Shown here: positions 7,870-36,121 of the stretch, one piece after another
How positions within the stretch are numbered: the first letter of the stretch is position 1
Layout: every line of letters begins with the position of its first letter
IMG/VR virus record: IMGVR_UViG_3300042566_001780
Span: 129,190-193,189 of that record
Reading direction: 5' to 3' (one strand)
Length of the DNA: 64,000 nucleotides
DNA from: a virus
Program-made: the position numbers and the translations under genes
The notes under the pieces: generated by a model
The model's database searches: none
What the model was told of the DNA's origin: nothing
Seen by the model: the letters and a program-made list of their open reading frames with translations, nothing else

Positions 7870-8769
7870 ATGGGACAAGGTCGCTGGACATCTGATAGTT
7901 TTACAACTTACGCATCCACCACCAATTATCGTGCAATGAGCCGTGATGCTGTTTTCAGCAAATCTGTTCAGGCTGAACTGAAGACTGAATCTATCAAGGT
8001 TCGTGAATCTCGTGACTCTGCTGATAGCCCCAATTCGACTCCAATTATCCTCGGTCTGGATGTGACAGGCTCGATGGGTGAATATGCTGAGCGCATTGCC
8101 AAGGATGAACTGCCGAAGCTGATGAATGCAATTTTGGAACAGTCTCCTGTTGCTGATCCGCATCTGATGTTTATGGCTATTGACGATGTGCATGCATACA
8201 GTCAAGTGCCGCTGCAGGTGTCTCAATTTGAAGCCGACATTCGAATTCTGGAACAGCTTCGCAAGATTGTTCTGGTTGGCGGTGGCGGTGGCAACAAGTC
8301 TGAGTCTTACGACTTGGCATGGTACTGTGCTGGTATGAAGACTTCGATCGACTCTTTCGAGAAGCGTGGTGAAAAAGGTTTCTTGTTTACCTTTGGTGAT
8401 GAAGAAGCCCCTTACGAAACTTTGTCGATCAACGAGCAGACTCAAGTGTTTGGCGCTGGACAATATATTCCTATGCAGCCTCGAGAAATCCTGGATGCTG
8501 CAAAAAAGATGTATAATGTCTTTCACATCGTTATTGAACAAGGAAGTTATGCTCGAAGCCGATTCGATTCGGTGAAGAAAACATGGACTGATTTGCTTGG
8601 TAATAATGTTCTGTTCCTGAAAGATTTTCGAAATCTGTCGGAACTGGTAACAAGTACTATTCGAATTGCAAAAGGCGAAGACATGAGTCAAGTCATTCAC
8701 AATTCGTCTATTCCTCAAGAATTGAAGTACGCTTACCAAAATGCGTACGCATCGATGGAAACTGCGTGA
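7870..8769 (+). CDS. von Willebrand factor A (vWA)-like domain protein
   Basis: LGLDVTGSMG (MIDAS-like DxTxS), LVGGGGG, FLFTFGDEEAP beta-strand pattern. Confidence 0.5.
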   Translation: MGQGRWTSDSFTTYASTTNYRAMSRDAVFSKSVQAELKTESIKVRESRDSADSPNSTPIILGLDVTGSMGEYAERIAKDELPKLMNAILEQSPVADPHLMFMAIDDVHAYSQVPLQVSQFEADIRILEQLRKIVLVGGGGGNKSESYDLAWYCAGMKTSIDSFEKRGEKGFLFTFGDEEAPYETLSINEQTQVFGAGQYIPMQPREILDAAKKMYNVFHIVIEQGSYARSRFDSVKKTWTDLLGNNVLFLKDFRNLSELVTSTIRIAKGEDMSQVIHNSSIPQELKYAYQNAYASMETA

Positions 8770-8770
8770 A

Positions 8771-10156: not shown

Positions 10157-11548
10157 ATGGAACAACTTAGCTACAACCCTATCCTCGACGTCGATTCGTA
10201 CAAAGCTGCACACCAGTTTTCGTACCCAAAGAACGTCACCGGCATGTTCTCTTATATTGAGGCACGCACCAAGAATGATGTGATGATTCCGTTTGGACTG
10301 TCGATGTTCTTGCAAAAGTACATGTCAATCCAAATAACGAAGGCTTATATCGATGAAGCTGAAGAATTCTTCAAGCTGCACGGTGAACCATTTTCTCGTG
10401 AACCCTGGGAGCACATTGTCAACGAATATGACGGCTTTATGCCTCTCACTATTCGTGCAGTACCTGAAGGAACTCCGGTGAAAAGCTCTAATGCAATTGT
10501 CACTGTTCAATGTGATGATCCTGCAGTGCACTGGCTGTCTTCTTACGTCGAAACCAAAATCCAACGCGCAATTTGGTATCCTACTACGATTGCTTCAATG
10601 GACTATGCAATCAAGCGGGTCTTTAAGGAATTCTATGAAGCTACTGGGGCAGATATGAATTTGCTCCCGTTTGCCCTCCATGATTTTGGTGCGCGTGGTG
10701 TCGCAAGCTACGAGCAATCTGAAATTGGCGGTGCAGCACACATGGTCAACTTCATGGGTTCTGACACCGTGGCAGGTATTCGTGCTGCAAACTTCTATTA
10801 CAGTGAGCAAATGGCCGGGTTTTCTGTGCCGGCTACTGAGCACAGTGTGGAATGCTCGTTTGGTGAAGAAAATGAAATCGGTTATCTGGAACACGTCATT
10901 GACAATCTGGCCAAGCCTGGTGGTATTGTGTCTATTGTGATTGACGGCTATGATGTTTATCGTGCTGCGCAAACTCTTTGCACTACGCTGAAAGACAAGA
11001 TCATTGCAAGCGGCGTCAAGGTCGTATTCCGCCCTGATAGTGGGGATATGCAAGTGGTGGTGCCTCGTATCCTTGAATTGCAGGCCGCTACTTTTGGTTA
11101 TGAAGTCAATGAAAAAGGCTTCAAGAAGATTAAATACGTTGGCATTATCCAAGGTGATGGCGTTGATCACTTGTCCATTCGTTCGCTGCTTGGCAAAATG
11201 AAGGTGATGGGTTTCTCTGCTGATAACGTGGTTTTTGGATCTGGTGGTGCACTGCTCCAAAAGGTCAATCGAGACGTTTTCAAATTCGCCCAAAAAGCTT
11301 CTGCTGTTCGGATTGATGGGAAGTGGGTCGGTATCAGTAAAAATCCAATCACCGATCCCGGAAAGCGAAGCAAGGAAGGCGTTTTGACTCTTGTTAAGAG
11401 TCGACTGACTGGTGAATACTCTACGGCTCGAATTGATGATAAGCGTCTTGATTCTGAGTTTGAAGACCAAATGGAACTTGTCTACTACAATGGCAAGATC
11501 ATGAATTCTCCAACTTTGTCTGAAATTCGAGAACGCTGCAAGCTGTAA
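10157..11548 (+). CDS. nadV: nicotinamide phosphoribosyltransferase (NAMPT/NadV)
   Basis: N-terminal NPILDVDSYKAAHQ signature, 463 aa, RBS aaggagc. Confidence 0.85.
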   Translation: MEQLSYNPILDVDSYKAAHQFSYPKNVTGMFSYIEARTKNDVMIPFGLSMFLQKYMSIQITKAYIDEAEEFFKLHGEPFSREPWEHIVNEYDGFMPLTIRAVPEGTPVKSSNAIVTVQCDDPAVHWLSSYVETKIQRAIWYPTTIASMDYAIKRVFKEFYEATGADMNLLPFALHDFGARGVASYEQSEIGGAAHMVNFMGSDTVAGIRAANFYYSEQMAGFSVPATEHSVECSFGEENEIGYLEHVIDNLAKPGGIVSIVIDGYDVYRAAQTLCTTLKDKIIASGVKVVFRPDSGDMQVVVPRILELQAATFGYEVNEKGFKKIKYVGIIQGDGVDHLSIRSLLGKMKVMGFSADNVVFGSGGALLQKVNRDVFKFAQKASAVRIDGKWVGISKNPITDPGKRSKEGVLTLVKSRLTGEYSTARIDDKRLDSEFEDQMELVYYNGKIMNSPTLSEIRERCKL

Positions 11549-12726: not shown

Positions 12727-12803
12727 CGCCACTTAGCTCAGTTGGTCAGAGCAAGAGCTTCTAACACTCCAGGTCGCGGGTTCGAGCCCCGCAGTGGCGA
12801 CCA
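12727..12803 (+). tRNA. solitary tRNA-like gene, anticodon loop reads uuCUAac (possible CUA amber-suppressor) with weak anticodon stem; encoded CCA
   Basis: 7-bp acceptor cgccact/agtggcg, D arm gctc-agttggtca-gagc, T arm gcggg-ttcgagc-cccgc, CCA end; anticodon stem agagc/actcc has only 3 pairs. Confidence 0.55.
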
Positions 12804-12833: not shown

Positions 12834-14828
12834 ATGTCTGATTTCAAGTTTTTTGCTACCAAAGTTTTTGACAAGTTTACTGAAATGTCGAAGGGTGAAC
12901 TGTTCACCGTCGATATTGATGGTGACAACCTGTACGCCCATTACATCAGCTCTTTCCCTGATGGCACTAATCCGATCTTCAAGACTCGGACAGAGCATGA
13001 GTGCTCTACCTGCAAGAACTTCATTCGCAATCTGGGTCTTGTTGTTTCCATCTCTGGTGGCAAACTGGATTCTGTTTGGAATGTGAAGGGTCTGCAAAGT
13101 CCCTACAAAGAAGTGGCTGCTGCACTTCATCAATATGTGGTGGTGAATAATGTCAAGACCATCTTCCGCTCTACAGAACGTTCGTATGGTGTTGCCGAAT
13201 CCAAGCAATTGATTGACAACAACATTCATCGTTGGAATCACCTACACGGTGTTGTGGCTGCAAAGCATTATGCCAAAGCAAATGCTGCAACTCAAATTGG
13301 CGAGTTCAATGCCCATATTCAGGTATTTTCTCGTGGGCTGGAAGAATTTACGAAAGACTCGATTGATTCTGTTCTGGATCTGATTGCCAGCAAGTCCATT
13401 TATCGCGGTGAAGAGCATAAGCCGGCTGTCGATGCGTTCAAGAAGCTGTTTGATGCTTATCACAAGCTGAAGACTGCCAAAGAGAAGAACATTTTCGTCA
13501 TGGAAAATGCAAATACCTTTGGTGCTCGTATTCGTAACACTGTGATTGGCACCCTGATTCAAGATCTGTCGGCTGGTGAAGACTTGGAAAAGGCAGTTCG
13601 CTCGTTTGAAACGAAGGTTTCACCTACCAACTACAAGCGCACTACGGCTCTCATTACACCCCGAATGATTCAAGATGCAATGAAGACTATCGGTGAACTT
13701 GGTCTTGAGTCTGCGCTGGAACGTCGTCTGGCAAACATCTCGGATGTTAGTGTCAATAACGTTCTGTGGGTGGATAATGCTGTCAAGCCCATGATGAAGG
13801 GCGGTATTGAAGGCTTGTTGATGGAGGCAACTTCGAGCAAGGATGCTGCTATTAGCTTCAAGAATCCGGTCAATATCGGGATTGAAGAGTTTATGGCTGA
13901 TATTCTGCCAAGCGCTTCTGAAATCAACATGTGCGTGAAGAATGAGCATCTGGCAAATTTTGCTACGCTCACTGCTCCTGTTCATGCTGATTCTGAAAAA
14001 CTGTTTAAGTGGAACAATGCGTTTGGTTGGTCGTATGATGGCAACATCACTGATACCATTCGTGAACGAGTGAAGGCTGCTGGTGGTAACGTTGATGCTA
14101 AGCTTCGATTTAGCCTGTCGTGGTTCAACTACGATGATCTGGACATCTATGTGACTGAACCTAACGGTCGAGAAATTTATTTCTGCAACAAGGATGGAAA
14201 ACTTGATGTTGACATGAATGCTGGTGGTGGTCGCAGCCGTACCCCGGTTGAGAACGTCAGTTTCAAGAATCCTCAAGATGGAGTTTACGTTGTCAAGGTG
14301 AATCAGTATTCTCGTCGTGAAACTACAAATGTTGGTTTTGTGATTGAAGCAGCCTCGGGTTCTGGTACTAATCAGTACTCGTACAATAAGGCAGTTTCTG
14401 GCAAAATTAATGTTGGTAGCTTTACCGTGAAGAACGGTGTCATTGTTGATGTCAAGATGGGTGCTGGAATTTCTGGTACTGGAATCTCCGAAACTAAATG
14501 GGGTGTCAAGACTGAGAGCCCGGTGAAAGTGAAGACTGTTATGTTTAGCCCCAACTATTGGGATGACAATAAGGTCGGTAACAAGCATTGGTTCTTTATC
14601 TTGGAAGGTTGCAAAACTGACCAAGCAGCCCGAGGGATTTATAATGAATTCCTTGACGCGCGACTTGAAAAGCACCGCAAAGTGTTTGAAGTCCTGGGTG
14701 ACAAGACAAAGTGTCCAGCTATTGATGATCAATTGAGTGGTTTGGGTTTCTCTTCTACTCGAAAAGATCAAGTTTTGGTTAGTGTGAAACTCGGTAAATC
14801 GACAAAAGTGTTTAATATCAATTTTTAA
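12834..14828 (+). CDS. large hypothetical protein (664 aa) with C-terminal beta-sandwich region resembling the DUF2135/YfaP-type domain
   Basis: C-terminal LDIYVTEPNGREIYFCNKDG...PVENVSF...GVYVVKVNQYSRRE pattern (from memory of the family logo; weak). Confidence 0.55.
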   Translation: MSDFKFFATKVFDKFTEMSKGELFTVDIDGDNLYAHYISSFPDGTNPIFKTRTEHECSTCKNFIRNLGLVVSISGGKLDSVWNVKGLQSPYKEVAAALHQYVVVNNVKTIFRSTERSYGVAESKQLIDNNIHRWNHLHGVVAAKHYAKANAATQIGEFNAHIQVFSRGLEEFTKDSIDSVLDLIASKSIYRGEEHKPAVDAFKKLFDAYHKLKTAKEKNIFVMENANTFGARIRNTVIGTLIQDLSAGEDLEKAVRSFETKVSPTNYKRTTALITPRMIQDAMKTIGELGLESALERRLANISDVSVNNVLWVDNAVKPMMKGGIEGLLMEATSSKDAAISFKNPVNIGIEEFMADILPSASEINMCVKNEHLANFATLTAPVHADSEKLFKWNNAFGWSYDGNITDTIRERVKAAGGNVDAKLRFSLSWFNYDDLDIYVTEPNGREIYFCNKDGKLDVDMNAGGGRSRTPVENVSFKNPQDGVYVVKVNQYSRRETTNVGFVIEAASGSGTNQYSYNKAVSGKINVGSFTVKNGVIVDVKMGAGISGTGISETKWGVKTESPVKVKTVMFSPNYWDDNKVGNKHWFFILEGCKTDQAARGIYNEFLDARLEKHRKVFEVLGDKTKCPAIDDQLSGLGFSSTRKDQVLVSVKLGKSTKVFNINF

Positions 14829-17385: not shown

Positions 17386-18852
17386 ATGGCCCAATTAGTT
17401 TCAACTGGTCAAATAACAATCGTTGATACCAACGATGCGCGCACCATAACAGCAGTTTTAGTTGCAAATGGAGCAACACAACAGATCTATACAAAAGATG
17501 AATCGACGGTAACATATGTGCCAAGTTGGTTTACGACCAACTTGGTGATTACACCGCAGATTGCTATTGGCGGTATGACATCTGCGCAAACTTGGGCTGC
17601 ACTTAGTAATAAAACTTTTGCTTTAACAGCAGGCGGTGCAGCTTTAACGACAGCCTCTACATCTGCTTCATTCGTCAATAACAGCGATGTGGTAGTGAAC
17701 ACGCCATTTGTCGTTACTCATGCAGCAGCAGGATCTTCCACACCGTCAACTATAGCTATAGCAGCAAACCTTAAAGATTCAGTGGCTGCATTTACGTTAT
17801 TTTTTGATGCTGATTTTGTTGATCCAACCACACTTTTAGTAACGCATATCACATGTCAGATTACTCTCACCACGGTGAAGACTGGCACTAATGCTGTTTT
17901 TATTACGTTGCGCGGACAAACTAGTATCGAAGAAGCTACGGGATCTGTTAAAAACAATATTGCAATTGCCGCAGATTTAGTTCGCTCTAGCGGAATTGAT
18001 ACCACTAATTTAACTTATAAGTGGTATGAAGACGGAGGTGGTGTTCAGATCACGACATCACTTGCTAGTTATGCTACTAAATATGGGTTGAAAACATCCA
18101 GTGCCGGCACTGTACCAACAGCAACCGGCACTGACCTTGGTGTAAACATTCCAGGAGTTGGTACTGGAAATGCTTTTAACACATTAGTAATCAATGAAAC
18201 TGCTGTTGCAGATATTGAAATATATAAGGTTGAAATTACTGATGGTGATTCAAAAACATATGTAGCATATTTCACAATCTATGATTTAAGCGATCCTTAT
18301 GAAGTCCGAGTTTTATCGTCAACTGGAGATAAGTTGCAAAATGGTCAGGGGAGCACAGTTTTAACACCTGAAGTATTTTACGGTGCCACAAAAGTCTCGT
18401 CATTGACAGATTGGTCATTTACGTGGTTCTTCTATGATAGGAATGGTAAACGGGGTGCTTTTGTTGACACGGCAAAAATTAGCACTGCTGGCGGAGCTAA
18501 TATTTCAGCAAACACTACAGGTAATAGCGCCACTTTTACATATGGTGGTACTAGCTACGCCTTTACCGCTGGTATGATTATTAAGGCAGTGAAGCCAAAT
18601 GGAGAAGCATTTTTCTATGAAGTTGCAAGTAGCACCACAAATAGCGTAACTATTAGAGCACCGTCGATTAACACATGGTTGACATTTGTTGATTATCCTG
18701 CCCCGTCATCTACTACTGATTTTGTTAATGGAAAACTATTTGGATGTACTACAGGTGGCACCAGAACCACTATCAACAACAATAGCATTACATTGACTGG
18801 TGATGAAGTTGACAGTAAAGCTAGAATCTTAGTTGAAGCTTATCGTCCATAA
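17386..18852 (+). CDS. tail-fibre-like protein sharing N-terminal module with the giant fibre
   Basis: N-terminus MAQLVSTGQITIVDTNDAR vs MPTLVSSGDITISDVNDGL of the 18904 ORF. Confidence 0.55.
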   Translation: MAQLVSTGQITIVDTNDARTITAVLVANGATQQIYTKDESTVTYVPSWFTTNLVITPQIAIGGMTSAQTWAALSNKTFALTAGGAALTTASTSASFVNNSDVVVNTPFVVTHAAAGSSTPSTIAIAANLKDSVAAFTLFFDADFVDPTTLLVTHITCQITLTTVKTGTNAVFITLRGQTSIEEATGSVKNNIAIAADLVRSSGIDTTNLTYKWYEDGGGVQITTSLASYATKYGLKTSSAGTVPTATGTDLGVNIPGVGTGNAFNTLVINETAVADIEIYKVEITDGDSKTYVAYFTIYDLSDPYEVRVLSSTGDKLQNGQGSTVLTPEVFYGATKVSSLTDWSFTWFFYDRNGKRGAFVDTAKISTAGGANISANTTGNSATFTYGGTSYAFTAGMIIKAVKPNGEAFFYEVASSTTNSVTIRAPSINTWLTFVDYPAPSSTTDFVNGKLFGCTTGGTRTTINNNSITLTGDEVDSKARILVEAYRP

Positions 18853-18903: not shown

Positions 18904-21900
18904 ATGCCAACATTAGTAAGTTCTGGTGACATCACTATTAGCGATGTCAATGATGGTCTTAATGCAAGACTATCTAATGAGTCACACGTTATTCCAACAG
19001 ATGCAGATGGGTTAAATGGAGATTTCTCTGGTTGCTCTACTACTATATCTGTGTTTGTTGGTCCCATAGATGATTCTGCAAACTGGACTATTACAGCTTT
19101 GGCATCTCCAGGTTTAACTGGTACATTAGCTGGCAGGACGTATACGGTAACTGCATTGAGCGGAGATATTGGGTATGTTGATCTAACTGCTTCTAAAACT
19201 GGTTTCCCATCTATTACGTCTAGATTTTCTGTTTCTAAAGCAGTTGCTGGCACCAATGGTCAAGATGCATCTCAAATTGCTGTAGTTGCAACCCAATGGG
19301 ATTATCGTGACGATGATGCAGCTTGGGGCATCAGAATTAACGGTACACTGCAAACAGGCGCTGCACGTGGTCATAAACTTGTAGTATTGAACCCAGCTAC
19401 TAATACAGTATCGATAAATCAAAACTACGATACTTATGGATCTGTATCTAATACAGATAGTTTGGCTGCTGCAATTTCTGCGGTTGCGGACGGACTAGTG
19501 GTCATTCTTACCACATATGATGCTACTCAATGTAATCAAAATTTGAGAAATGCTTTAAGATTATGCGGAAGTGAATCAACTGAAACCTGGGCAACACAAC
19601 GTAAATCTCACGCTTTCATTGGCCAAAAAGGTCTTCCTATTGGTGCTGCATATGAAAAGACTGGATTTGGCACCACCTCTGCTGGTACTTCAAGAGTAGC
19701 TGCATATTTTACCACTAGTGGCGTTGTGCGAAATGGATCTACTGCATTTAATGCAGTTTCAGCAATTCTTTCTAATGAAGCACATGTGTTTACTGCATCA
19801 ACTGCCGGTGTGGTTGCTTCATATGTTGGATCTGGCACTGAGCTACGGGTGTATGATGGTACTGTTTTATTGACATATGATGGTTCTGGTACTTTACCAG
19901 GTACTTGGAAGTTTACAAATGTTGCTTCAAACATCACAATTGGGGCGATATCTGATAGCGGCGCATTTGCCACTATTGGCGATCATTCAGGTGTTGCTGA
20001 TGGTGTTGACACATCTAGCATTACATACACTATTACTGGTAAATCGTTAATTAATTCCGATTTCACTTTAGTGAAGGTACAGACCTTTAGTAAAGCTAAA
20101 CGTGGAATAGAAGGCGATAATGCTATATCCGTAACGCTATCAAATGAAACTCACGTTTTTCCAGCTACTTACACAAATATAGTTTCTAATTATAGGAATT
20201 CTGGAACTGAAATCCAAGTTCTTGAAGGAGCAACTGAATTAGCATATGATGCGGCCGGGTTAACTCCCGGCACATGGAAAGTTGATACCTCATCAAGTAA
20301 CATAGTTGCCGGTCCTGTCAAAAAATTTATTTTGGGAGATGATTGGGTTTTTAATGATGGGATGGGCAGCAGTGGATGGGGGGTTAATACTGCAGTAACT
20401 TGTATTATTTGGGCAAATAATCAATTTATTGCTGGTGGCACAAATGGAAAAATTGCTACTAGTTCTGATGGAATTACCTGGTCGGTAAATGAAAATTTAT
20501 CAAAAACTGGGTGGGGAGATAGCGTAATTTTAGACATAATTTGGACTGGTGTTCAGTATGTTTTAGTAGGAGCCAATGCTACCTATTCTTCAGATCTTAG
20601 TATTTGGTATGCAAATGGATCAATAAATTCTACAGCTGTGGCTACTAGTTCTGATGGAATTAATTGGGAATATCAACCCGACTTAAATCTAAAAACAAAT
20701 AATGGCGCATTATGCATAGCTTGGAATGGATCAAAATATGTTGCTGGTGGTCAAGCTGGGTTAATAGCAACCAGTTTAGATGCTAAAACCTGGGAAATTA
20801 GCACAAATTTGTCGTCTACTGCGTGGGGCACAAATGTATCTGGTGATTCAGTTGATGTTCTTGATATAAATTGGAATGGATCGCAATTTTTAGCTGTAGG
20901 GGTTTTGGGGCGTGTGGCCACCAGTCCTGACGGTGTAACTTGGACATATCAGGCTGGGTTAACTAGTACAGCATGGGGGACCAGTTTAACTGGCGCGGTT
21001 AGATCAATTAATTGGAATGGGTCCCAGTATGTTATTGTTGGGCAAGGCGGGAGAGTGGCTACAAGTCCTAATGGTATCACGTGGACATATCAAAGTGGAT
21101 TAGCAAGTACTGCTTGGGGTGCAGGAGCAATATATTCTATAAATTGGAATGGATCTCAATATATTGTAGTTGGCGCATCTGGCAAAGTAGCTACAAGCCC
21201 AGATGGAATAACTTGGACATATCAGAGCGGGATAACGAGTGTATGGGGGTCGAGTTATGATGCCTTTACTGTTATTTGGAATGGATCCAAATATGTCGTT
21301 GGTGGCGTTAGTGGATCAGTGGCAACGAGCGCCGATGGTATTACTTGGGCAAATCAGGGTGGGCTAGCTGGAACTGATAAGTGGTTAGATTCACCAGTTA
21401 ATTCAGGAACATTATTATCTAGATATGCTATTATTGGTGGTGACGGAGCTAAATTAGCAGTTAGATTTAATGATGAATGGGAATTTCAAGATGCTTTTGC
21501 CATTAAATCTGCTATCGATCTAACAGTTTTAGATTTTAATGGTTCGCAATATATTGTTGGCGGGACAAATGCAACGCTAGCTATAAGCAGTGATGGAATA
21601 TATTGGACATACCAAGATGGACTGGCTAATGCGAGCTGGGGGACCAGTGCTACTTACGATATAAATTGGAATGGATTTCAATACATGGCTGTCGGAGCTG
21701 GAGGCCGAGTAGCAACAAGTCCAGATGGTATTACCTGGACATATCAAAGCAGTCTAGCTAGTACAACTTGGGCGACAGCTACGGCTTATTCGATTAGTTG
21801 GAATGGATCTCAATATGTTATAGTTGGTACTTTAGGCAGGGTCGCTACAAGTCCAGATGGCATAACTTGGACTTATCAGGGCGGCTTGGCTAGTACAACT

Positions 21901-24900
21901 TGGAGCACTGCTACGGCCCGCTGTATTGTTTGGAACGGGTCACAATATCTCGTTGTAGGACAATCTGGACGAGTAGCTACAAGCCCAGATGGCATAACTT
22001 GGACTTATCAGGGTGGACTTAGAGCTACTTCGTGGGGAACATTAGATACGGTGTTTGATGTCCATTGGAATGGATCACAGTATTTGGTTGTTGGAGATTC
22101 AGGTAAAGTTGCAACTAGTCCAGATGGAATAACTTGGACAAATCAAACAGGCTTATCGAGTACTACTTGGGGGACGGTCAATGAAATATATTCAATTGGT
22201 TGGGATGGATCTCAATATGTAGTTTGCGGCATGGATGGTGATATAGCTACTAGCTTTGATGGTATAACATGGAAATACCAAGCGGGGCTTTGGAATACAC
22301 CATGGGGAGCATTAGATTATGCTAATAGCATTATTTGGGATGGAACACAATTCTTAGTTGTCGGGGATAATAGAAAATTAGCTACCAGCGTAGATGGAGT
22401 AAACTGGAAATTTAAACCTAATTTATCTGGATGGAAAAATTCTGGGAATGTAAACCATCTTGCAAATATAGATAATACTGTTTATGCTCTTGGATCTGCT
22501 GGGAATATTGCATGTTCAAATAATCTTATAGATTGGACATTTTTAGCCCCGGTTGGTGCTGTTGACATAGGGGCCGTTTCGCTTACTGGTATTGCAAAAT
22601 CTGCAAATGACACATTATGTGCAATTGGGTCAAATAATCTAGTTATGGTGGGCAATGAGAATCAAAACTTATCATTACGCCTCGGTTATGCATCAATAAA
22701 CACACGCTTTTTTGCTAATACCGCAAATAAAATAAATTGGAATGGTACACAATACCTTGCTGTTGGTAATGATGCAAGCATAGCAACTAGCGTAGATGGC
22801 GTAACGTGGGTTAATCAAGTTGGCTTAATAAGCGCTGACTGGGGAATAAGTAATATAAATGATGTCCATTGGAATGGATCACAATATGTCGTTGTTGGCA
22901 ATTCTGGCAAAGTAGCTACGAGTCCAGATGGAATAACTTGGACAAATCAAACAGGCCTATCGAGTACTGCTTGGGGGATAGATGATATTTTTGCAGTGGC
23001 GTGGAATGGATCGCAATACATAGTTGGTAGCAATTATGGTGGTATTGCAACTAGCCCAGATGGAATAACTTGGACATATAGAAGTGGATTAGCAAGCACA
23101 ACGTGGGGAGCGGCTGCTGTGCGTGCAATTAACTGGAATGGATCGCAATATCTAGTGGCTGGTGCTTCTGGCAAAGTAGCTACAAGTCCAGATGGTATTA
23201 CATGGGCATATCAGGGGGGTTTAACCAGCACTACATGGGGGACAACTACGGCATATTTTGTTAACTGGAATGGATCACAGTATCTTATAGGCGGCGCAGC
23301 TGGGCGAATAGCAACTAGCCCAGATGGAATAACTTGGACATATAGAAGTGGATTAGCAAGCACAACGTGGGGGTCAGCATCGACAGCTATTGTTTATTCT
23401 ATTAATTGGAATGGATCGCAATATCTAGTGGCTGGTGGATCAGGTAAAGTTGCAACTAGCCCAGATGGAATAACTTGGACATATCAGAGCGGGTTGACTA
23501 GCACTGCGTGGAGTTCTAGCGCTGTTTTTTCAATTAGCTGGAATGGATCGCAATATCTAGTTGTTGGGGAATTGGGTAAAGTTGCAAGTAGCACAACTGG
23601 AGTATCTTGGGTGTATGGCCGCAGATTAACAAGTACTACATGGGGCGGGAGTGATATAAACGATATAGTTTGGAATGGATCTCAATATCTAGTTATTGGT
23701 GATTCAGGTAAAGTTGCAACTAGCACAACTGGAGTATCTTGGTCTTATCAACCATTATTGCAAGATACTTTATGGAGATCTACAAATATTAACGCAATTA
23801 ACTGGAATGGATCTCAATATCTTATATGCGGCGAGGGCGGTGCTATAGCAACCAGCCCAAATGGGGTAACTTGGACATATCAAAGTGGATTGACGAGCAC
23901 TGCATGGGGGACAACTGCCGTTTATGCAATTAACTGGAATGGATCGCAATATCTCATAGCTGGTGGATCAGGTAAAGTTGCAACTAGTCCAGATGGAATA
24001 ACTTGGACAAATCAAACAGGCCTATCGAGTACTGCTTGGGGGACAAATACTATATATTCTATTAGTTGGGGTGGATCTCAATATGTTATTGCTGGGAATT
24101 CTGGCGCTATAGCAACCAGCCCAAATGGGGTAACTTGGACATATCAAGGTGGTTTAGCCAGTACTGCTTGGGCGACTAGTGCAGTACGCAGCATTGTTTG
24201 GAATGGATCGCAATATCTAGTGGCTGGTGCTTCTGGCAAAGTAGCAACAAGCCCAAATGGAGTAACTTGGACATATCAAGGTGGTTTAGCCAGTACTGCT
24301 TGGGGTGCCGAAATAGTTTATTCAATAAGCTGGAATGGTTCACGTTATATAGTAGCAGGTGGTGATATTGGATCTACTGGTAAAGTAGCCACAAGTTCAA
24401 ATGGCGTAACATGGACATTTGCAGATATAAATAATGATTCTTCGTCTACGCCCATTTTAACAAAAAGTTATTACGATGGAACACGATTCATATTATGCAG
24501 CTCAGGCCAATTGTGGTTTAGCACGGTCGGGGATATTAGCTTTTTATATCCTACTTGGACTATTACCCAAGCATTGCCAGCCGGATCTGAATGGAATACA
24601 AATACCTATGCTTCATCAATAGCATGGGGCAATAATGTTTTTTGTGTTGTTGGCGAATACGGAAGAGTGGCTACGAGTGTTGATGGTAATATTTGGATAC
24701 ACCAGGAATTGCTTAATTCAATTGGCGGATGGAACTATTCAAACATTAATCAAGTAATTTTTGCAAATGGAGTATTTTGCATTATTGGGGATTATGGCAA
24801 TACAGCCATAAGCGCTGATGGCATCACCTGGCAAGTTAGCAATTCATTAGTTAGTACTGATTGGGGTAGAAATCCTATAACATCAATAGTTTGGGCTAAT

Positions 24901-25746
24901 GGAAAATTCCATATTTTTGGATATAATGGAAAGACCGCTTTTAGCTCGGACGGATTAACCTGGCAATTTAATAATAAAATTAGACTAACAGAATGGGGAA
25001 TTGATAAAGATATTTTCTGCTCTTTTGCAAATGATGAAATCATTTACGCTGGGGGGACTGATGGATACCTAGTTTTTAGCGATGATTTTGTTGGTATTGA
25101 AATGCATTCCGATTTCAATAATGGTGCAGATTCTGCCGTTATTGATTATCTAGTGACAGGATATTCCTCAAGAAACGAATATTTTAGTGTCAAAAAACAG
25201 CAAACTTTGAGTAAGGCTAAAACTGGAAATATTGCAACAGCCACATTTGGAGTAAACATTACTGGCCAAATAACACCAGCAAATGCAAGCACGTTTATTG
25301 CTAATACTGCAATAGGAACTGCGCAAATTGCTGATGCAAGCGTAGAGACATTAAAGATTGCCGGTAATGCAGTTACCGTTCCGGCTTCAGCGTATACTGC
25401 CGCTGCATTTACGCTGACTACAACATTTGCTGTTATTCAATCAGTTGTAGTTGATTTGCAGAGCGATATTCCGATACCAGTGATAATAACCTCATCATTT
25501 ACTTTAAGTGGCGCAACGGTATCTCAGTTTAGAATTCTTCGTGGAACCACTGTGTTGTTTACATCTGGTGAAATAGTGCAGGGGACTGATGGCATAAATA
25601 AACCAACATCACCTATTTCTATTGCTATTGGTGATACTGCTCCAATAGGAACGTCTACATATTACCTAGAAGCTAGATATGTAAGCGGGTTTACTGCTAG
25701 AACTGCCGCGACTAGAAATCTAACAATATTAGGTGTAAAGAAATGA
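18904..25746 (+). CDS. giant tail fibre / adhesin (2,280 aa) with >=30 Asp-box (BNR, S-x-D-G-x-T-W) ~42-aa repeats
   Basis: Repeats of ...VATSPDGITWTYQSGLASTAWG..INWNGSQY.VAG.SGK... across residues ~480-1800; uninterrupted 6.8-kb ORF. Confidence 0.8.
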   Translation: MPTLVSSGDITISDVNDGLNARLSNESHVIPTDADGLNGDFSGCSTTISVFVGPIDDSANWTITALASPGLTGTLAGRTYTVTALSGDIGYVDLTASKTGFPSITSRFSVSKAVAGTNGQDASQIAVVATQWDYRDDDAAWGIRINGTLQTGAARGHKLVVLNPATNTVSINQNYDTYGSVSNTDSLAAAISAVADGLVVILTTYDATQCNQNLRNALRLCGSESTETWATQRKSHAFIGQKGLPIGAAYEKTGFGTTSAGTSRVAAYFTTSGVVRNGSTAFNAVSAILSNEAHVFTASTAGVVASYVGSGTELRVYDGTVLLTYDGSGTLPGTWKFTNVASNITIGAISDSGAFATIGDHSGVADGVDTSSITYTITGKSLINSDFTLVKVQTFSKAKRGIEGDNAISVTLSNETHVFPATYTNIVSNYRNSGTEIQVLEGATELAYDAAGLTPGTWKVDTSSSNIVAGPVKKFILGDDWVFNDGMGSSGWGVNTAVTCIIWANNQFIAGGTNGKIATSSDGITWSVNENLSKTGWGDSVILDIIWTGVQYVLVGANATYSSDLSIWYANGSINSTAVATSSDGINWEYQPDLNLKTNNGALCIAWNGSKYVAGGQAGLIATSLDAKTWEISTNLSSTAWGTNVSGDSVDVLDINWNGSQFLAVGVLGRVATSPDGVTWTYQAGLTSTAWGTSLTGAVRSINWNGSQYVIVGQGGRVATSPNGITWTYQSGLASTAWGAGAIYSINWNGSQYIVVGASGKVATSPDGITWTYQSGITSVWGSSYDAFTVIWNGSKYVVGGVSGSVATSADGITWANQGGLAGTDKWLDSPVNSGTLLSRYAIIGGDGAKLAVRFNDEWEFQDAFAIKSAIDLTVLDFNGSQYIVGGTNATLAISSDGIYWTYQDGLANASWGTSATYDINWNGFQYMAVGAGGRVATSPDGITWTYQSSLASTTWATATAYSISWNGSQYVIVGTLGRVATSPDGITWTYQGGLASTTWSTATARCIVWNGSQYLVVGQSGRVATSPDGITWTYQGGLRATSWGTLDTVFDVHWNGSQYLVVGDSGKVATSPDGITWTNQTGLSSTTWGTVNEIYSIGWDGSQYVVCGMDGDIATSFDGITWKYQAGLWNTPWGALDYANSIIWDGTQFLVVGDNRKLATSVDGVNWKFKPNLSGWKNSGNVNHLANIDNTVYALGSAGNIACSNNLIDWTFLAPVGAVDIGAVSLTGIAKSANDTLCAIGSNNLVMVGNENQNLSLRLGYASINTRFFANTANKINWNGTQYLAVGNDASIATSVDGVTWVNQVGLISADWGISNINDVHWNGSQYVVVGNSGKVATSPDGITWTNQTGLSSTAWGIDDIFAVAWNGSQYIVGSNYGGIATSPDGITWTYRSGLASTTWGAAAVRAINWNGSQYLVAGASGKVATSPDGITWAYQGGLTSTTWGTTTAYFVNWNGSQYLIGGAAGRIATSPDGITWTYRSGLASTTWGSASTAIVYSINWNGSQYLVAGGSGKVATSPDGITWTYQSGLTSTAWSSSAVFSISWNGSQYLVVGELGKVASSTTGVSWVYGRRLTSTTWGGSDINDIVWNGSQYLVIGDSGKVATSTTGVSWSYQPLLQDTLWRSTNINAINWNGSQYLICGEGGAIATSPNGVTWTYQSGLTSTAWGTTAVYAINWNGSQYLIAGGSGKVATSPDGITWTNQTGLSSTAWGTNTIYSISWGGSQYVIAGNSGAIATSPNGVTWTYQGGLASTAWATSAVRSIVWNGSQYLVAGASGKVATSPNGVTWTYQGGLASTAWGAEIVYSISWNGSRYIVAGGDIGSTGKVATSSNGVTWTFADINNDSSSTPILTKSYYDGTRFILCSSGQLWFSTVGDISFLYPTWTITQALPAGSEWNTNTYASSIAWGNNVFCVVGEYGRVATSVDGNIWIHQELLNSIGGWNYSNINQVIFANGVFCIIGDYGNTAISADGITWQVSNSLVSTDWGRNPITSIVWANGKFHIFGYNGKTAFSSDGLTWQFNNKIRLTEWGIDKDIFCSFANDEIIYAGGTDGYLVFSDDFVGIEMHSDFNNGADSAVIDYLVTGYSSRNEYFSVKKQQTLSKAKTGNIATATFGVNITGQITPANASTFIANTAIGTAQIADASVETLKIAGNAVTVPASAYTAAAFTLTTTFAVIQSVVVDLQSDIPIPVIITSSFTLSGATVSQFRILRGTTVLFTSGEIVQGTDGINKPTSPISIAIGDTAPIGTSTYYLEARYVSGFTARTAATRNLTILGVKK

Positions 25747-26156
25747 AATTTACAATTTTCAATGTAACTACTGGAGAAATAGCTAAAAATGTCGATTGCT
25801 CAGAATCTACAATTTTATTGCAGTATGATCCCTTAGAATATTCGCATATACCAGGAGAATGGGATTATTTTTCCACATACATAGAAAATGGCATCCCAAT
25901 CCAAATGCCAGAGCGCCCAAGTGAATTTCACATCTTTGATTATTCTATTAAGGAATGGGTAGACCCAAGAACGCCAGATTCTGAATGGCTATTAGTTAGA
26001 CAAAAACGAAATCAATTGTTAGCTGAGTGTGATTGGACACAACTTCCAGATGTGCCGCTGCCAACCAAAGAGATATGGGCAATTTACCGTCAAGAATTAA
26101 GAGATATAACGCTTCAACCTGACCCATTTAATATTATTTGGCCTGAACAACCTTGA
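25743..26156 (+). CDS. hypothetical protein (137 aa), translationally coupled to fibre gene
   Basis: ATGA overlap with the end of the 18904 ORF. Confidence 0.5.
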   Translation: MKFTIFNVTTGEIAKNVDCSESTILLQYDPLEYSHIPGEWDYFSTYIENGIPIQMPERPSEFHIFDYSIKEWVDPRTPDSEWLLVRQKRNQLLAECDWTQLPDVPLPTKEIWAIYRQELRDITLQPDPFNIIWPEQP

Positions 26157-26203: not shown

Positions 26204-27457
26204 TTATAGAACACCAACTAAACTTGTCGGTGATTGGAAAATTCTAAAAGACTCTTCACTAGGAAGAGGAACGCGATATTTCAATTTCGCTTTCTTTAGC
26301 CAGTCATGCAGCTCTTTCCACGAACTTACCATAGGTATCTGGGTTTCCTTCCATAGGTCCTCTAGATACCCCTTAGATGGGAGTTCAGGATAAAACTTTT
26401 TGCTTTTCTGGATTACTACTTCATAGCCGCGCCTAGCAATTTCGCATGATGCGGCTATTGGATCTGGCAATGTTGGGTTTAGCACATTACCAATTGTTGA
26501 CGAATAGGCGGCATTTATTTCACACAGTTTGAAATATTTTGATAAGACGGCTTTTAGTGTAGCTTTCTTCCATTGATTTTTGCAAAGCCGATTTAAATTT
26601 TTGCCTTTACCAATAGAACCACTTTTAAAATTTAACTGCTCAATAAAAAGAGTTTTCACATGCATATGCTGTAACCAGCGAGAAATTGCATGTCCTATTT
26701 CTCTAGTTTCATGTTGGAGCTTATCAGCAGATGCCCGTTTGCCAGTTAAACTTTTCAAAGAAAATAATTTTGTTTCAACAATCTTATTTCCATCAAAAAT
26801 GGATATGCCGATGTAATTTGGGTTTAAGTCAATTCCAGCATACCTATTTGCTAAAGGTTTAGCGATAGGTTTTATGCTTTTCTTGACTTTAGAATCATCA
26901 AAAGACAAACAAATATGTTGCGAAGTGAGCGACACCGTAATTGGCAAACTCTTACTATTTGCCAGTGTAATTGCAAATTGCCATAGCTTACTCCAATTTT
27001 TCCTCATTTTTGGCAAAGAAATAAGGACCTGCTTACCTTGCCATGGCTTAAACAATACAGAATCTGCACCAAAACTAAATTTTCTATTGCCTTTAGCTGG
27101 AGACTCACCAATAAGATAAACCGGATTTAGGCGTAGCTCTTTCCATTCGTCATTTGAGATCAAACCTTTAGCACGTCTGACTAGATTTTTAACTCCGCCA
27201 AAAACTCTACTTGTTCTATCAGTCTCAGAGTCAGCTCTAAACATACCAATACCACACTTAACAGCAGATTGTTGAAACCATGAATCTAATTGATCTTTGA
27301 ACCTAGTTCTAATTTCTGCTCTAACTGAAATTTCTGCGCACCCATAAGACGCCTGCTTGTAAGCAGTGCGAATCATCGAAGACTGCGCTATTTGCAGTTC
27401 TTTAATGAACTTAGCATCCTCTTCAGATAATTGTATTGGAAATTTCAGAGTGATCAT
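26204..27457 (-). CDS. tnpB: TnpB (IS605/IS607 OrfB, RuvC-like RNA-guided nuclease family)
   Basis: GIDLNPNYIGISIF (RuvC-I D), TLFIEQLNF (RuvC-II E), CEINAAYSSTIGN (RuvC-III region with E in place of the usual D), sparse Cys in zinc-finger region. Confidence 0.75.
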   Translation of the reverse strand: MITLKFPIQLSEEDAKFIKELQIAQSSMIRTAYKQASYGCAEISVRAEIRTRFKDQLDSWFQQSAVKCGIGMFRADSETDRTSRVFGGVKNLVRRAKGLISNDEWKELRLNPVYLIGESPAKGNRKFSFGADSVLFKPWQGKQVLISLPKMRKNWSKLWQFAITLANSKSLPITVSLTSQHICLSFDDSKVKKSIKPIAKPLANRYAGIDLNPNYIGISIFDGNKIVETKLFSLKSLTGKRASADKLQHETREIGHAISRWLQHMHVKTLFIEQLNFKSGSIGKGKNLNRLCKNQWKKATLKAVLSKYFKLCEINAAYSSTIGNVLNPTLPDPIAASCEIARRGYEVVIQKSKKFYPELPSKGYLEDLWKETQIPMVSSWKELHDWLKKAKLKYRVPLPSEESFRIFQSPTSLVGVL

Positions 27458-27481
27458 GACGAAATTGTTTTGTATGCTTGA

Positions 27482-28075
27482 TTATCTATTTATATCTTTT
27501 GCCATTTCTTTAGCAAATTCTTTGAGCTCTTTTCTTCGATTGGAATAAATTTTCATTGAAAAGTGATGAATGATTGAAACTAAATCTTGAGTTAACTCAA
27601 TTTGGAAATCTTCCTCAACTGTTGCATTAATTGGTACAATCTTCACATCAAAATGCGCAAGGAAATTTTCAATATATCCATAACCAAATCTCGTCAATCT
27701 ATCCTTATATGTCACATAAATTGTATCAATCTCTTTTGCAATACATTTACTAATTAGTTTGTTAAAAGATTTTCTAGATTCATTCATGCCAGATGCAATA
27801 TCTTCAAACTCCTCGTCGATTATCACCCCGTTGGCACTGGCATATGATCTAAGTGTCTGTTTTTGCCTTATCAAATCATCTTTTTGCTTAGTTGTACTAA
27901 CTCTAGCATAAATGACTTTTTTCCTAGATTTAACTATTTCCTCTTCGAGGGGAAAATATAAAAATTTTCCAGATGGTAATTTTGAAAATTTAATGTGACC
28001 AGCCAATCTCCAGTTATGGAGAGTTTGACTACTAATCTTGTATTTTTCTTTAACCTGTTTAGCTGAAAGGTACAT
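27482..28075 (-). CDS. tnpA: IS607-type TnpA serine recombinase (N-terminal MerR-like HTH)
   Basis: N-terminal HTH; VIYARVSTTKQKDDLIRQ catalytic serine motif; 197 aa. Confidence 0.8.
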   Translation of the reverse strand: MYLSAKQVKEKYKISSQTLHNWRLAGHIKFSKLPSGKFLYFPLEEEIVKSRKKVIYARVSTTKQKDDLIRQKQTLRSYASANGVIIDEEFEDIASGMNESRKSFNKLISKCIAKEIDTIYVTYKDRLTRFGYGYIENFLAHFDVKIVPINATVEEDFQIELTQDLVSIIHHFSMKIYSNRRKELKEFAKEMAKDINR

Positions 28076-35855: not shown

Positions 35856-35940
35856 CCATCAGATGCCAAACTGGTTATGGCACTCGACTTTTAATCGAGC
35901 GCGTTACGCTTTGTGGGTTCGAGTCCCACCTGATGGACCA
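35856..35940 (+). tRNA. tRNA-Lys(UUU)-like, 85 nt with long (13-nt) variable arm; encoded CCA
   Basis: Acceptor ccatcag/ctgatgg, D gcca/tggc, anticodon stem ctcga/tcgag loop cuUUUaa, extra arm gcg-tta-cgc, T gtggg-ttcgagt-cccac. Confidence 0.6.
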
Positions 35941-35948
35941 AAGTTTTT

Positions 35949-36024: not shown

Positions 36025-36030
36025 AAAAAT

Positions 36031-36115: not shown

Positions 36116-36121
36116 AGTTAT

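What the first reader, a model, noticed from the sequence alone, without database searches (positions are those of the whole stretch)
18904..25746. 2,280-aa fibre made of ~30+ Asp-box (BNR) repeats with long near-identical DNA repeats inside the gene
The protein is dominated by a ~42-aa unit (VATSPDGITWTYQSGLASTAWG...INWNGSQY.VAG.SGK). Each unit carries an S-x-D-G-x-T-W Asp-box, predicting several tandem beta-propellers. This is unusual for a phage receptor-binding protein at this scale. At DNA level, 40-120-nt segments recur almost identically (e.g. tggaatggatcgcaatatctagtggctggtg at ~23140, ~23410, ~24210; atagcaaccagcccaaatggggtaacttggacatatcaa at ~23850 and ~24110). Such repeats are substrates for expansion, contraction and replication slippage, a possible route to rapid host-range change.
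Basis: seen in the sequence. Interest (0 to 1): 0.6.

Follow-up and report, generated by a model that had tools for sequence, protein, structure and literature searches.

The report
Five-propeller tail fibre of jumbo phage
One gene of a giant bacterial virus encodes a 2,280-residue tail fibre with 35 copies of a 44-residue beta-propeller blade (probably five seven-bladed propellers) looped out of a small fibre domain; it is an extreme example of a common but unstudied phage module, not a new kind of system.

Summary
ORF 18904-25746(+) encodes 2,280 aa with 35 tandem blades of about 44 aa (132 nt), and the quoted DNA repeats sit at the stated coordinates. Exact repeats reach 62 nt; synonymous shuffles give a mean of 24 nt and a maximum of 41.

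Structure prediction and fold searches show generic seven-bladed beta-propellers. Stand-alone and phage-fibre relatives carry 7 or 14 blades, so 35 most simply means 5 x 7. The partition itself is unresolved.

Corrections and additions:
- **Motif:** it is the 7-residue "short Asp-box" (S-x-D-G-x-T-W). There is no canonical 8-residue Asp-box and no Pfam BNR hit. The nearest Pfam family is DUF6242.
- **Nesting:** the whole 1,581-aa array (aa 479-2059) is inserted in a hairpin of an Ig-like fibre domain.
- **Fibre slot:** related phage contigs keep the upstream tail gene and only the fibre's N-terminal ~115 aa. Their fibres have zero blades, so this slot varies by module swapping.
- **Repeat age:** most blades are old (synonymous sites near saturation), with patches of gene conversion or two-blade duplication.

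The slippage/host-range idea is untested and structurally awkward. The likely role is a multivalent host-surface binding module on a side fibre. This is a new variant of a known kind, of moderate interest.

The parts
18904..25746 (+). Tail-fibre gene, 2,280 aa
   Evidence: ORF list. The exact protein is on record as 'hypothetical protein' on a 291,687-nt contig.
18943..19260 (+). aa 14-119: N-terminal 'SNE-type' Ig-like domain (D0). It is the conserved anchor and the only part shared with the syntenic fibres of related phage contigs.
   Evidence: An HMM built from 146 such domains of other proteins gives iE 4.6e-11. Identity to the fibres of L009-L020 is 30-41% over aa 1-113/119, and extends to aa 293 in L011. 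The N-terminal motif M..LVS[ST]G.ITI.D.ND is shared only with the upstream gene.
19366..19632 (+). aa 155-243: ILEI/PANDER-like domain
   Evidence: Pfam PF15711, E=3.5e-14, 53.5 bits against a cutoff of 27. The POMGNT1 stem domain 5ggj matches at E=2.8e-4.
19732..20115 (+). aa 277-404: complete SNE-type domain (D1)
   Evidence: SNE HMM positions 2-128, iE 5e-50. 42-46% identity to tail proteins of Bacillus phages BCP78, BM15 and Hobo.
20104..20337 (+). aa 401-478: N-terminal two-thirds of a second SNE-type domain (D2), interrupted by the propeller array
   Evidence: SNE HMM positions 3-86, iE 7e-28. The split domain aligns colinearly with D1 (z=20.8).
20338..25080 (+). aa 479-2059: array of 35 four-stranded blades. 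It opens with an outer strand 'DWVFND' and ends with strand 3 of blade 35, 'GYLVFS'. The most parsimonious reading is five seven-bladed propellers, with inferred boundaries near aa 818/819, 1127/1128, 1437/1438 and 1748/1749.
22868..24338 (+). Most repetitive DNA zone: a two-blade (264-nt) super-repeat, 5.5 copies, holding most of the long exact repeats
   Evidence: TRF period 264. Exact repeats of 62/58/47/43/42 nt have at least one copy here; the 54-nt repeat has one copy at 22099, outside the zone. Even blade offsets are more similar than odd ones.
25081..25230 (+). aa 2060-2109: C-terminal third of the split SNE-type domain D2
   Evidence: SNE HMM positions 71-126, iE 9.4e-12, at aa 2053-2109. 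phmmer against aa 356-431 gives iE 3e-5. The local alignment has z=9.2.
25231..25743 (+). aa 2110-2280: C-terminal tip region, beta-rich, fold unresolved
   Evidence: Shared with the C-termini of other long tail proteins P0031, P0044 and P0024 (E 5e-14 to 2e-8). AF2 confidence is low, with pLDDT mostly below 55. No PDB or Pfam hit.
25743..26156 (+). Tail-fibre assembly chaperone gene, overlapping the fibre stop codon (ATGA)
   Evidence: Pfam PF16778 Phage_tail_APC, E=5e-16. PHROG 4912 'tail fiber assembly', E=3.6e-16.
17386..18852 (+). Upstream tail protein. It is conserved in related phage contigs and has the same N-terminal motif as the fibre.
   Evidence: PHROG 3267 'tail protein', E=5.8e-42. 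42-74% identity over the full length on 12 IMG/VR contigs, plus a 182-aa fragment. Motif. It ends TAA-TAA-TAG, so there is no read-through fusion.

Best explanation
This is a side or distal tail fibre of a jumbo contractile-tailed phage. The tail sheath is closest to those of Ralstonia RsoM2USA and Xanthomonas XacN1/Xoo-sp13.

Proposed architecture and mechanism:
- The N-terminal ~115 aa dock the fibre on the baseplate, probably next to or onto the product of the upstream gene, which carries the same N-terminal motif.
- An ILEI/PANDER-like domain and Ig-like 'SNE-type' domains form the proximal shaft.
- A 1,581-aa array of 35 short-Asp-box blades loops out of a hairpin of the second SNE-type domain. 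It most likely folds into five seven-bladed beta-propellers.
- The array's first strand and last strand lie next to each other, as the insertion geometry requires.
- The chain then returns to finish the host domain and ends in a ~170-aa tip. Assembly of the tip is probably helped by the chaperone encoded immediately downstream.

Proposed function: the propellers are compact, near-symmetrical binding modules, not enzymes. They would give the fibre many equivalent low-affinity sites for a repetitive host surface polymer such as polysaccharide, for the first reversible adsorption step.

Proposed origin of the DNA repeats: they are footprints of how the array grew, by amplification of one- and two-blade units followed by patchy gene conversion. 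They are not a switch.

Shown: gene, domain order, blade count, nesting, propeller fold, family distribution, module swapping among relatives. Inferred: the 5 x 7 partition, the closure, virion location, the binding function and the ligand class.
For: Fibre identity:
- PHROG tail proteins lie upstream and a Phage_tail_APC chaperone lies downstream.
- The SNE-type domain is shared with long proteins that carry Phage_Tail_Tip, Phage-tail_3, Peptidase_S74, collagen and CBM_5_12 domains.
- It is also shared with Bacillus phage tail proteins.
- Sheath at 54711-56552 is 56% identical to that of RsoM2USA.

Blades and fold:
- 35 blades are found.
- AF2 assigns four strands per blade with the S-x-D-G hairpin between strands 3 and 4.
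- Foldseek top hits are double seven-bladed propellers, including the GH74 Asp-box enzymes.

Unit of seven:
- Relatives have 7 stretches at about 320 aa and 14 at about 640 aa.
- Nine of ten phage-fibre relatives checked have exactly 7 blades.
- The deepest pLDDT dip in the canonical region of model 2 falls at aa 1746-1765. That is the predicted boundary between propellers 4 and 5.

Nesting:
- An independent HMM hits aa 401-486 with positions 3-86 and aa 2053-2109 with positions 71-126.

Distal and variable role:
- Syntenic fibres of 7 related contigs share only the N-terminus (aa 1-113/119; aa 1-293 in L011) and have no blades.

Binding, not catalysis:
- The blades are near-identical, with short loops and no Pfam glycosidase match.
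- The literature assigns the Asp-box hairpin a structural role, not a ligand-binding one.
- phiKZ gp131 is a precedent: a fibre-borne seven-bladed propeller proposed to bind the host.

Repeat history:
- The identical-codon fraction is 0.47 against 0.40 expected.
- A few blade pairs reach 0.82-0.85.
- Long exact tracts exceed the synonymous shuffles.
- Periodicity is two blades, not seven.
Against: - No ligand, no virion localisation and no oligomeric state are known.
- I had no model coordinates, so the partition into propellers and the closure are not shown.
- The two AF2 runs disagree on register. In run 1 the confident propeller spans blades 18-24/25, which does not fit boundaries at multiples of seven. 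AF2 simply closed whichever blades the alignment covered.
- Blades without the motif (8, 17, 31) and the two Thr-variant blades (24, 25) could mark different boundaries, for example 8+9+7+7+4.
- Most characterised Asp-box propellers are glycosidases, so an enzymatic role is not excluded.
- The tip domain, not the propellers, could carry the specific receptor site.
Confidence: 0.55

Rival explanations
1. Contingency locus. The near-identical DNA repeats drive frequent in-frame gain and loss of blades by slippage or unequal recombination, which changes host range quickly.
For: Exact direct repeats of 40-62 nt spaced at multiples of 132 nt are present and are far more numerous than synonymous shuffles allow. 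A 264-nt super-repeat shows that duplications did happen. Beta-propellers are known to amplify from single blades with a continuum of blade numbers (PMC9218822).
Against: Mean blade nucleotide identity is only 0.60, and synonymous sites are close to saturation (0.47 against 0.40 expected), so most of the array is old and stable. Changing the count by 1-2 blades would shift the register of every downstream propeller. Relatives come in units of 7 or 14 blades. Related phages vary this slot by swapping the whole distal module. No second allele of this gene exists in any collection searched, so there is no polymorphism evidence either way.
Confidence: 0.1
2. The propellers are enzymes: a polysaccharide depolymerase or glycosidase like the GH74, GH33 and GH58 Asp-box propellers (for example the K1F endosialidase) that clears capsule or EPS.
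For: Most characterised Asp-box propellers are glycosidases. GH74 tandem seven-bladed enzymes are among the best Foldseek hits and have the highest identity, 12-14%. Weak sub-threshold sequence echoes of the motif occur in 5-bladed glycoside hydrolases and carbohydrate-binding proteins.
Confidence: 0.15
3. The array is mainly structural or non-specific: a bulky spacer, a shield, or an environmental-adherence decoration (to mucus or EPS). Receptor specificity would reside in the C-terminal tip or in other fibres.
For: The C-terminal ~170 aa is a separate region shared with other tail proteins, and it is followed by a dedicated chaperone, as for the receptor-binding tips of many fibres. The array is an insertion that the host domain can do without in other proteins, where the SNE domains are uninterrupted.
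Against: In many relatives the seven-blade module is itself the C-terminal end of the fibre (P0251, P0261, P0108, P0111, P0132), which is the usual place of a receptor-binding domain. The cost of 4.7 kb of coding sequence argues for a selected function.
Confidence: 0.2

Closest known systems
phiKZ gp131 C-terminal seven-bladed beta-propeller (jumbo-phage tail-fibre protein)
   Same: It is a jumbo myophage fibre protein whose distal part is a seven-bladed propeller proposed to bind the host. Paralogous fibre proteins share similar N-termini for docking (PMC13250141). Here the fibre and the upstream tail protein share an N-terminal motif.
   Different: gp131 has one terminal propeller. Here there are 35 blades, nested inside another domain. 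The blade profile found no significant match in any PDB sequence (best E=0.7), so no sequence relationship to gp131 or any other solved structure is detectable.
GH74 xyloglucanases / OXG-RCBH (tandem seven-bladed Asp-box propellers, e.g. 1sqj, 4lgn, 3a0f)
   Same: Tandem seven-bladed propellers of the Asp-box lineage, with a hairpin motif between strands 3 and 4. They are among the top Foldseek matches (E~1e-16, 12-14% identity).
   Different: They carry the canonical 8-residue Asp-box in only some blades. They have irregular blades and a catalytic cleft between two propellers. They are secreted enzymes, not virion proteins. The fibre has only the 7-residue form, in 29 of 35 blades.
Pfam DUF6242 (PF19755) and Ycf48/HCF136-like PSII_BNR (PF14870) propellers
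   Same: These are the nearest sequence families. 43 of 57 relatives and alignment members hit DUF6242 at E<=0.01 (best 3.7e-16). One relative passes the PSII_BNR cutoff. Database names such as 'photosystem II stability/assembly factor-like' are attached to relatives.
   Different: The fibre itself scores below the cutoff (23.3 bits at best against 29). DUF6242 has no known function. Ycf48 is a single cellular propeller.
[quoted passage not shown]
   Same: Arrays of very similar blades amplified from one or a few blades. Up to 47 consecutive blades are reported, which fold into several propellers, for example 7+8. 2ymu is the top Foldseek hit.
   Different: Those are mostly WD40-type cellular proteins with >60-80% blade identity. 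Here mean blade identity is 52% (aa) and 60% (nt), so most amplification is old. The protein is also a phage fibre.
Stand-alone 7- and 14-blade phage proteins of the same blade family (e.g. Limnohabitans phage DC31 XLZ15464.1; uncultured Caudovirales proteins in BFVD)
   Same: Same blade family at 30-45% identity, located in tail or lysis gene neighbourhoods.
   Different: They have one or two propellers, are not nested, and are all annotated as hypothetical. This gene has five propellers' worth of blades.

Membership tests
BNR / Asp-box repeat (Pfam PF02012, BNR_2 PF13088, PSII_BNR PF14870, Sortilin-Vps10 PF15902) | Significant match to one of the Pfam BNR-type models | tested here: not met
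   The whole protein and five sub-segments were scanned at E<=1 to 10. No BNR-type model was reported, only sub-threshold DUF6242. Among 57 relatives and alignment members, each of PSII_BNR, BNR_2 and Sortilin-Vps10 is hit by only one.
BNR / Asp-box repeat | Canonical motif (S/t)-X-(D/n)-X-G-X-(T/s)-(W/f/y), 8 residues from S to W | tested here: not met
   A regular-expression search finds zero occurrences in 2,280 aa. The consensus definition is from PMC2716378.
Short Asp-box (s-Asp-box) propellers sensu Quistgaard & Thirup 2009 | Motif S/t-X-D/n-X-X-X-W/f/y (7 residues) in the loop between strands 3 and 4 of a blade | tested here: met
   29 of 35 blades carry it at the hairpin between the AF2-assigned strands 'KVATS' and 'TWTY' (definition). 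Caveat: known s-Asp-boxes lack the Gly and occur in one or two blades of 5-bladed GH32/GH43 propellers. Here Gly follows Asp directly and the propellers are 7-bladed. The hairpin geometry was not checked because no coordinates were available.
Seven-bladed beta-propeller fold | Four-stranded antiparallel blades arranged in a closed ring of seven | tested here: inconclusive
Pfam DUF6242 (PF19755) | Score at or above the gathering threshold (29 bits) | tested here: not met
   The best segment scores 23.3 bits, E=6.6e-5. Relatives pass: P0127 42.3, P0245 44.3, P0267 54.2 bits. The fibre is therefore a divergent relative, not a scored member.
Phage tail fibre with downstream Tfa-type assembly chaperone | Fibre gene in a tail module, followed directly by a tail-fibre assembly chaperone gene. 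The N-terminus is conserved among relatives and the distal part is variable. | tested here: met
   PF16778 / PHROG 4912 chaperone at 25743-26156. PHROG tail proteins lie upstream. Only aa 1-113/119 is conserved in six of the seven syntenic fibres of related contigs that match (aa 1-293 in L011). Virion incorporation itself is not testable with these tools.
ILEI/PANDER (FAM3) domain, PF15711 | Score above the Pfam gathering threshold (27 bits) | tested here: met
   53.5 bits, E=3.5e-14, aa 155-243, covering the full profile length 1-89/90. It is supported by the POMGNT1 stem domain 5ggj at E=2.8e-4.

The most novel reading that the evidence does not exclude
The 35 blades form a closed chain of five propellers held by a single 'global velcro': the very first strand of the array completes the very last blade. 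The whole 1,581-aa assembly would then hang from one beta-hairpin of an Ig-like fibre domain. It would present about 35 equivalent glycan-binding sites per chain, and more per fibre if the fibre is oligomeric. That would be a new architectural class of phage 'super-lectin' adhesin, built from a widespread blade family that has no solved structure and no annotation in PHROGs.
Probability: 0.15. Interest if true: 0.7.

Novelty: new variant of a known kind. Interest (0 to 1): 0.45.

Why it matters
Three points matter.

- **An unstudied phage module.** The blade family is large: 10,667 cluster representatives at E<=1e-3. It recurs in phage tail modules as 7- or 14-blade units. Yet it has no solved structure detectable by sequence, and neither this fibre nor six other large blade arrays tested hit any PHROG family through their blades. 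Only a DUF is nearby in Pfam. Phage receptor-binding annotation therefore misses a common module.

- **A folding and assembly test case.** This gene is the largest array seen here in a phage context. Because the array is nested, five propellers must leave and re-enter one hairpin, which makes it a clean test case for multi-propeller folding and closure.

- **Guidance for host-range engineering.** Comparison with related contigs shows that this fibre slot diversifies by whole-module exchange behind a conserved ~115-aa adaptor. That is practical guidance on where to cut when engineering host range.

It does not open a new kind of mechanism.

Tried and rejected
- **Read-through fusion.** The upstream tail gene is in the same frame, and the window encodes a tRNA with anticodon CUA. 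I rejected a fusion because the upstream gene ends TAA-TAA-TAG and another TAA lies in the spacer.
- **Searching the 5.8-billion protein set with the 44-column blade profile.** It returned only four short fragments, because candidate selection favours short proteins. That search was wasted.
- **Looking for close relatives of the fibre.** None was found in INPHARED by megablast, IMG/VR, GTDB genomes, JGI metagenome contigs or by exact-protein contig look-up. The repeat-number polymorphism test could therefore not be run.
- **AF2 run 1 (aa 470-1669).** MAFFT stacked all homologues on two stretches. The other half of the model was unfolded (pLDDT ~33), and the propeller register followed the alignment coverage. 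I therefore do not use it to place propeller boundaries.
- **Seven-blade periodicity in DNA identity.** This would indicate whole-propeller duplication. It is absent; only a weak two-blade periodicity is seen.
- **Similarity between the fibre N-terminus and the upstream protein by BLAST.** Not significant. Only an 18-residue N-terminal motif is shared.
- **C-terminal tip against PDB and Pfam.** Nothing found.
- **PHROG scan of six other large blade arrays from the representative set.** No blade-family or tail-protein hits; the only hits were RCC1-type PHROG families on P0084, so their viral or cellular origin is unknown.

Full report
**1. The observation**

The ORF 18904-25746 (+) exists and encodes 2,280 aa. 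Tandem Repeats Finder reports periods of 132 and 264 nt between about 21707 and 24338. A blade HMM built from the clearest units finds 34-36 matches between aa 478 and 2041.

Reading all units in register gives 35 sets of inner strands plus one extra N-terminal outer strand. The unit is 44 aa, not about 42.

The longest exact direct repeats are 62, 58, 54 and 47 nt. These repeats are not explained by protein conservation plus codon bias:
- In 200 shuffles of synonymous codons, the longest repeat averaged 24 nt (maximum 41).
- Repeated 30-mers averaged 0.3 in the shuffles, against 136 observed.

Because the blades are on average only 60% identical in DNA, assembly collapse is unlikely to have created the array.

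**2. Context**

The window is part of a jumbo phage.
- The identical protein is on record on a 291,687-nt contig.
- The window carries a tail sheath gene at 54711-56552. Its best relatives are Ralstonia phage RsoM2USA (56%) and the Xanthomonas and Stenotrophomonas jumbo phages Xoo-sp13, XacN1, CM1 and RAS14.
- It also carries NAD-salvage genes, a PurA/PurZ-like gene and a tRNA cluster.
- There is no near-identical DNA in 50,697 phage records.

Around the gene:
- Immediately upstream lie two PHROG 'tail' proteins.
- Immediately downstream, overlapping by ATGA, lies a Phage_tail_APC / tail-fibre-assembly chaperone.
- Next comes an IS607-family transposase with a TnpB-like partner.
- The upstream tail gene is in the same frame as the fibre but ends TAA-TAA-TAG, so the two are separate genes.

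**3. Domain order**

An HMM built from 146 copies of an unannotated ~128-residue domain in other proteins hits the fibre four times. I call it 'SNE-type' after its LSNExHVF start.

| Fibre residues | HMM positions | iE |
|---|---|---|
| aa 14-119 | 5-128 | 4.6e-11 |
| aa 277-404 | 2-128 | 5e-50 |
| aa 401-486 | 3-86 | 7e-28 |
| aa 2053-2109 | 71-126 | 9.4e-12 |

The last two hits are complementary halves of one domain. Joined together they align colinearly with the intact copy (z=20.8). The C-terminal piece is significant on its own (z=9.2; phmmer iE 3e-5).

The whole blade array (aa 479-2059, 1,581 aa) is therefore an insertion in a hairpin of the second SNE-type domain.

Other parts of the protein:
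- Between the first and second SNE-type domains lies an ILEI/PANDER-like domain (PF15711, 53.5 bits; POMGNT1 stem domain E=2.8e-4).
- After the split domain comes a ~170-aa tip. It is shared with the C-termini of a few other long tail proteins, and its fold stayed unresolved.
- Proteins that share the SNE-type domain carry Phage_Tail_Tip, Phage-tail_3, Peptidase_S74, collagen and CBM_5_12 domains. They include tail proteins of Bacillus phages. This confirms the fibre identity.

**4. The blades**

AlphaFold2 with an alignment of 14-blade relatives gives pLDDT above 90 wherever the alignment covers the query. It assigns four strands per unit:
- strand 1, 'xYSINW'
- strand 2, 'QYLVVG'
- strand 3, 'KVATS'
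- strand 4, 'TWTY'

The S-x-D-G-x-T-W hairpin lies between strands 3 and 4, which is where Asp-boxes always lie.

Fold searches agree on the fold:
- Foldseek's best PDB hits are double seven-bladed propellers: 2ymu, the GH74 Asp-box enzymes, Aip1, PorZ and BT4663.

The fold claim is therefore supported. The family claim needs correction:
- The protein contains no canonical 8-residue Asp-box. It carries the 7-residue pattern [ST]-x-[DN]-x-x-x-[WFY] in 29 of 35 hairpins. This corresponds to the 'short Asp-box' of Quistgaard & Thirup.
- No Pfam BNR-type model is hit. Only DUF6242 appears, below its threshold.
- Relatives do pass DUF6242, and one passes PSII_BNR. This is a divergent branch of the Asp-box lineage, not a scored member.
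- The blade profile has no significant hit in any PDB sequence (best E=0.7), and the protein has no PHROG hit.

**5. How common and how large**

The blade profile finds 10,667 cluster representatives at E<=1e-3 among 1.84 billion proteins, and 306 at E<=1e-30. Typical sizes are 7 stretches in proteins of about 320 aa and 13-14 stretches in proteins of about 640 aa.

Many relatives lie in phage contexts:
- a gp38-like and endolysin neighbourhood
- Limnohabitans phage DC31
- IMG/VR contigs
- BFVD entries, including a Caulobacter phage tail fibre and cyanophage baseplate proteins

In ten fibre-like relatives checked, the module has exactly 7 blades in nine cases and 6 in one.

Larger arrays exist in the global set. 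One search reports 67, 40 and 35 stretches for P0090, P0107 and P0126; the stricter recount gives 59, 36 and 24. Their origin is unknown. Within phage contexts seen here, 35 blades is the largest count.

**6. How many propellers**

Thirty-five equals 5 x 7, and seven is the family's unit. The array begins with a lone outer strand and ends after a strand 3, which is the usual 'velcro' arrangement. Insertion into a hairpin requires the two ends to meet.

In AF2 run 2 the deepest confidence dip inside canonical sequence (pLDDT 67-70, against 83-98 for the other inter-blade linkers) falls at aa 1746-1765. That is the predicted boundary between propellers 4 and 5.

I still mark the partition as inferred, for three reasons:
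- I had no coordinates.
- In run 1 the confident propeller comprised blades 18-24/25, following alignment coverage and not multiples of seven.
- The four blades without the motif (8, 17, 31, 35) and the two Thr-variants (24, 25) could mark other boundaries.

**7. History of the repeats and the slippage idea**

Across blade pairs, identical amino acids use the identical codon 47% of the time, against 40% expected from codon usage. Most of the array is therefore old.

A few pairs reach 82-85% identical codons and 85-87% nucleotide identity. The long exact tracts are mosaic. The recent events have a two-blade period: TRF period 264, with even offsets more similar than odd. There is no seven-blade period. 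This fits the known mode of propeller growth by blade amplification, plus gene conversion.

The proposal that such repeats give rapid host-range change is not supported:
- I found no second allele anywhere.
- Changing the count by one or two blades would shift closure.
- The natural variation that can be seen is of another kind. Twelve IMG/VR contigs keep the full-length upstream tail gene at 42-74% identity (a thirteenth holds only a 182-aa fragment). On seven of them the downstream ORF (434-1,832 aa) matches this fibre, only at its N-terminus (aa 1-113/119; aa 1-293 in L011), and none of the downstream ORFs has any blades.

This is classic module swapping behind a conserved adaptor.

**8. 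Likely function**

The position behind a conserved adaptor, the dedicated chaperone, and the fact that relatives often end in a seven-blade module all point to host recognition. The phiKZ gp131 precedent agrees.

The blades are compact and nearly symmetrical, and no glycosidase family is hit. I therefore favour multivalent binding to a repetitive surface polymer over catalysis.

The ligand, the oligomeric state and the relative roles of the propellers and the tip are unknown. An enzymatic role and a mainly structural role remain live rivals.

**9. Verdict**

The 'BNR' label is loose, and the slippage mechanism is unsupported.

The new points are:
- the nesting of the whole array inside an Ig-like domain
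- the short-Asp-box identity of a large, unannotated phage blade family
- the evidence that this fibre slot varies by module replacement

This is a new variant of a known kind (beta-propeller receptor-binding modules on phage fibres; amplified propeller arrays). Interest is moderate.

Noticed in passing
window 26204-28075 (-): An IS607-family serine transposase lies at 27482-28075 (NCBIfam NF033518, 166 bits against a cutoff of 110). Next to it is a 417-aa partner with RuvC-like motifs by eye (TnpB-like) but no Pfam or NCBIfam hit. The pair is inserted directly after the tail-fibre chaperone gene of a jumbo phage. Its GC is 35.3%, against 40.1% for the window.
   Followed up: partly
window 12727-12803 (+): A tRNA with anticodon CUA, amber-suppressor-like (ARAGORN calls it tRNA-Pyl), lies just after an ORF that ends in TAG. 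TAG is the rarest stop among 50 long ORFs (3 TAG, 26 TAA, 21 TGA). This is possible stop-codon suppression in part of the genome.
   Followed up: partly
window 35856-37552 (+): A cluster of 11 tRNA genes: Lys, Ile, Glu, Gln, Asn, Trp, Phe, His, Asp, Met, Thr.
   Followed up: no
window 8741-10066 (+): A divergent adenylosuccinate-synthase-like gene (PHROG 1211, E=2e-49). All NCBIfam PurA and PurZ models score far below their cutoffs (PurZ 51.8 bits against 300). Whether it is a PurZ-type enzyme for a modified base was not resolved.
   Followed up: partly
window 4891-6015 and 10157-11548 (+): NAD-salvage genes: a NadR-like cytidylyltransferase with a Nudix domain, and nicotinamide phosphoribosyltransferase.
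   Followed up: no
window 17395-17448 and 18913-18966 (+): The fibre and the upstream tail protein start with the same 18-residue motif, M..LVS[ST]G.ITI.D.ND. It is found nowhere else in the six-frame translation of the window and is possibly a shared docking peptide.
   Followed up: partly
window 19732-20115 (aa 277-404 of the fibre), and proteins P0002-P0076: The ~128-residue 'SNE-type' domain (LSNExHVF...PGTWK...SKAKxG) is repeated many times in very long metagenomic tail proteins of up to 3,807 aa. It has no Pfam or PHROG model.
   Followed up: partly
window 20575-20628 (aa 558-575): An 18-residue insertion inside blade 2 (NATYSSDLSIWYANGSIN) carries an extra copy of the short Asp-box pattern. 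It may be the remnant of a collapsed blade.
   Followed up: no
L005 5602-15596 (IMGVR_UViG_3300009151_000030): Three consecutive ORFs of about 1,090 aa each lie next to a weak (29%) propeller match on a 179-kb viral contig. They are possibly paralogous fibre genes.
   Followed up: no
window 12834-14828 (+): A 664-aa protein of unknown function (PHROG 1735, E=9e-229) is conserved at 46-52% identity across 549 phage records of very different hosts.
   Followed up: no
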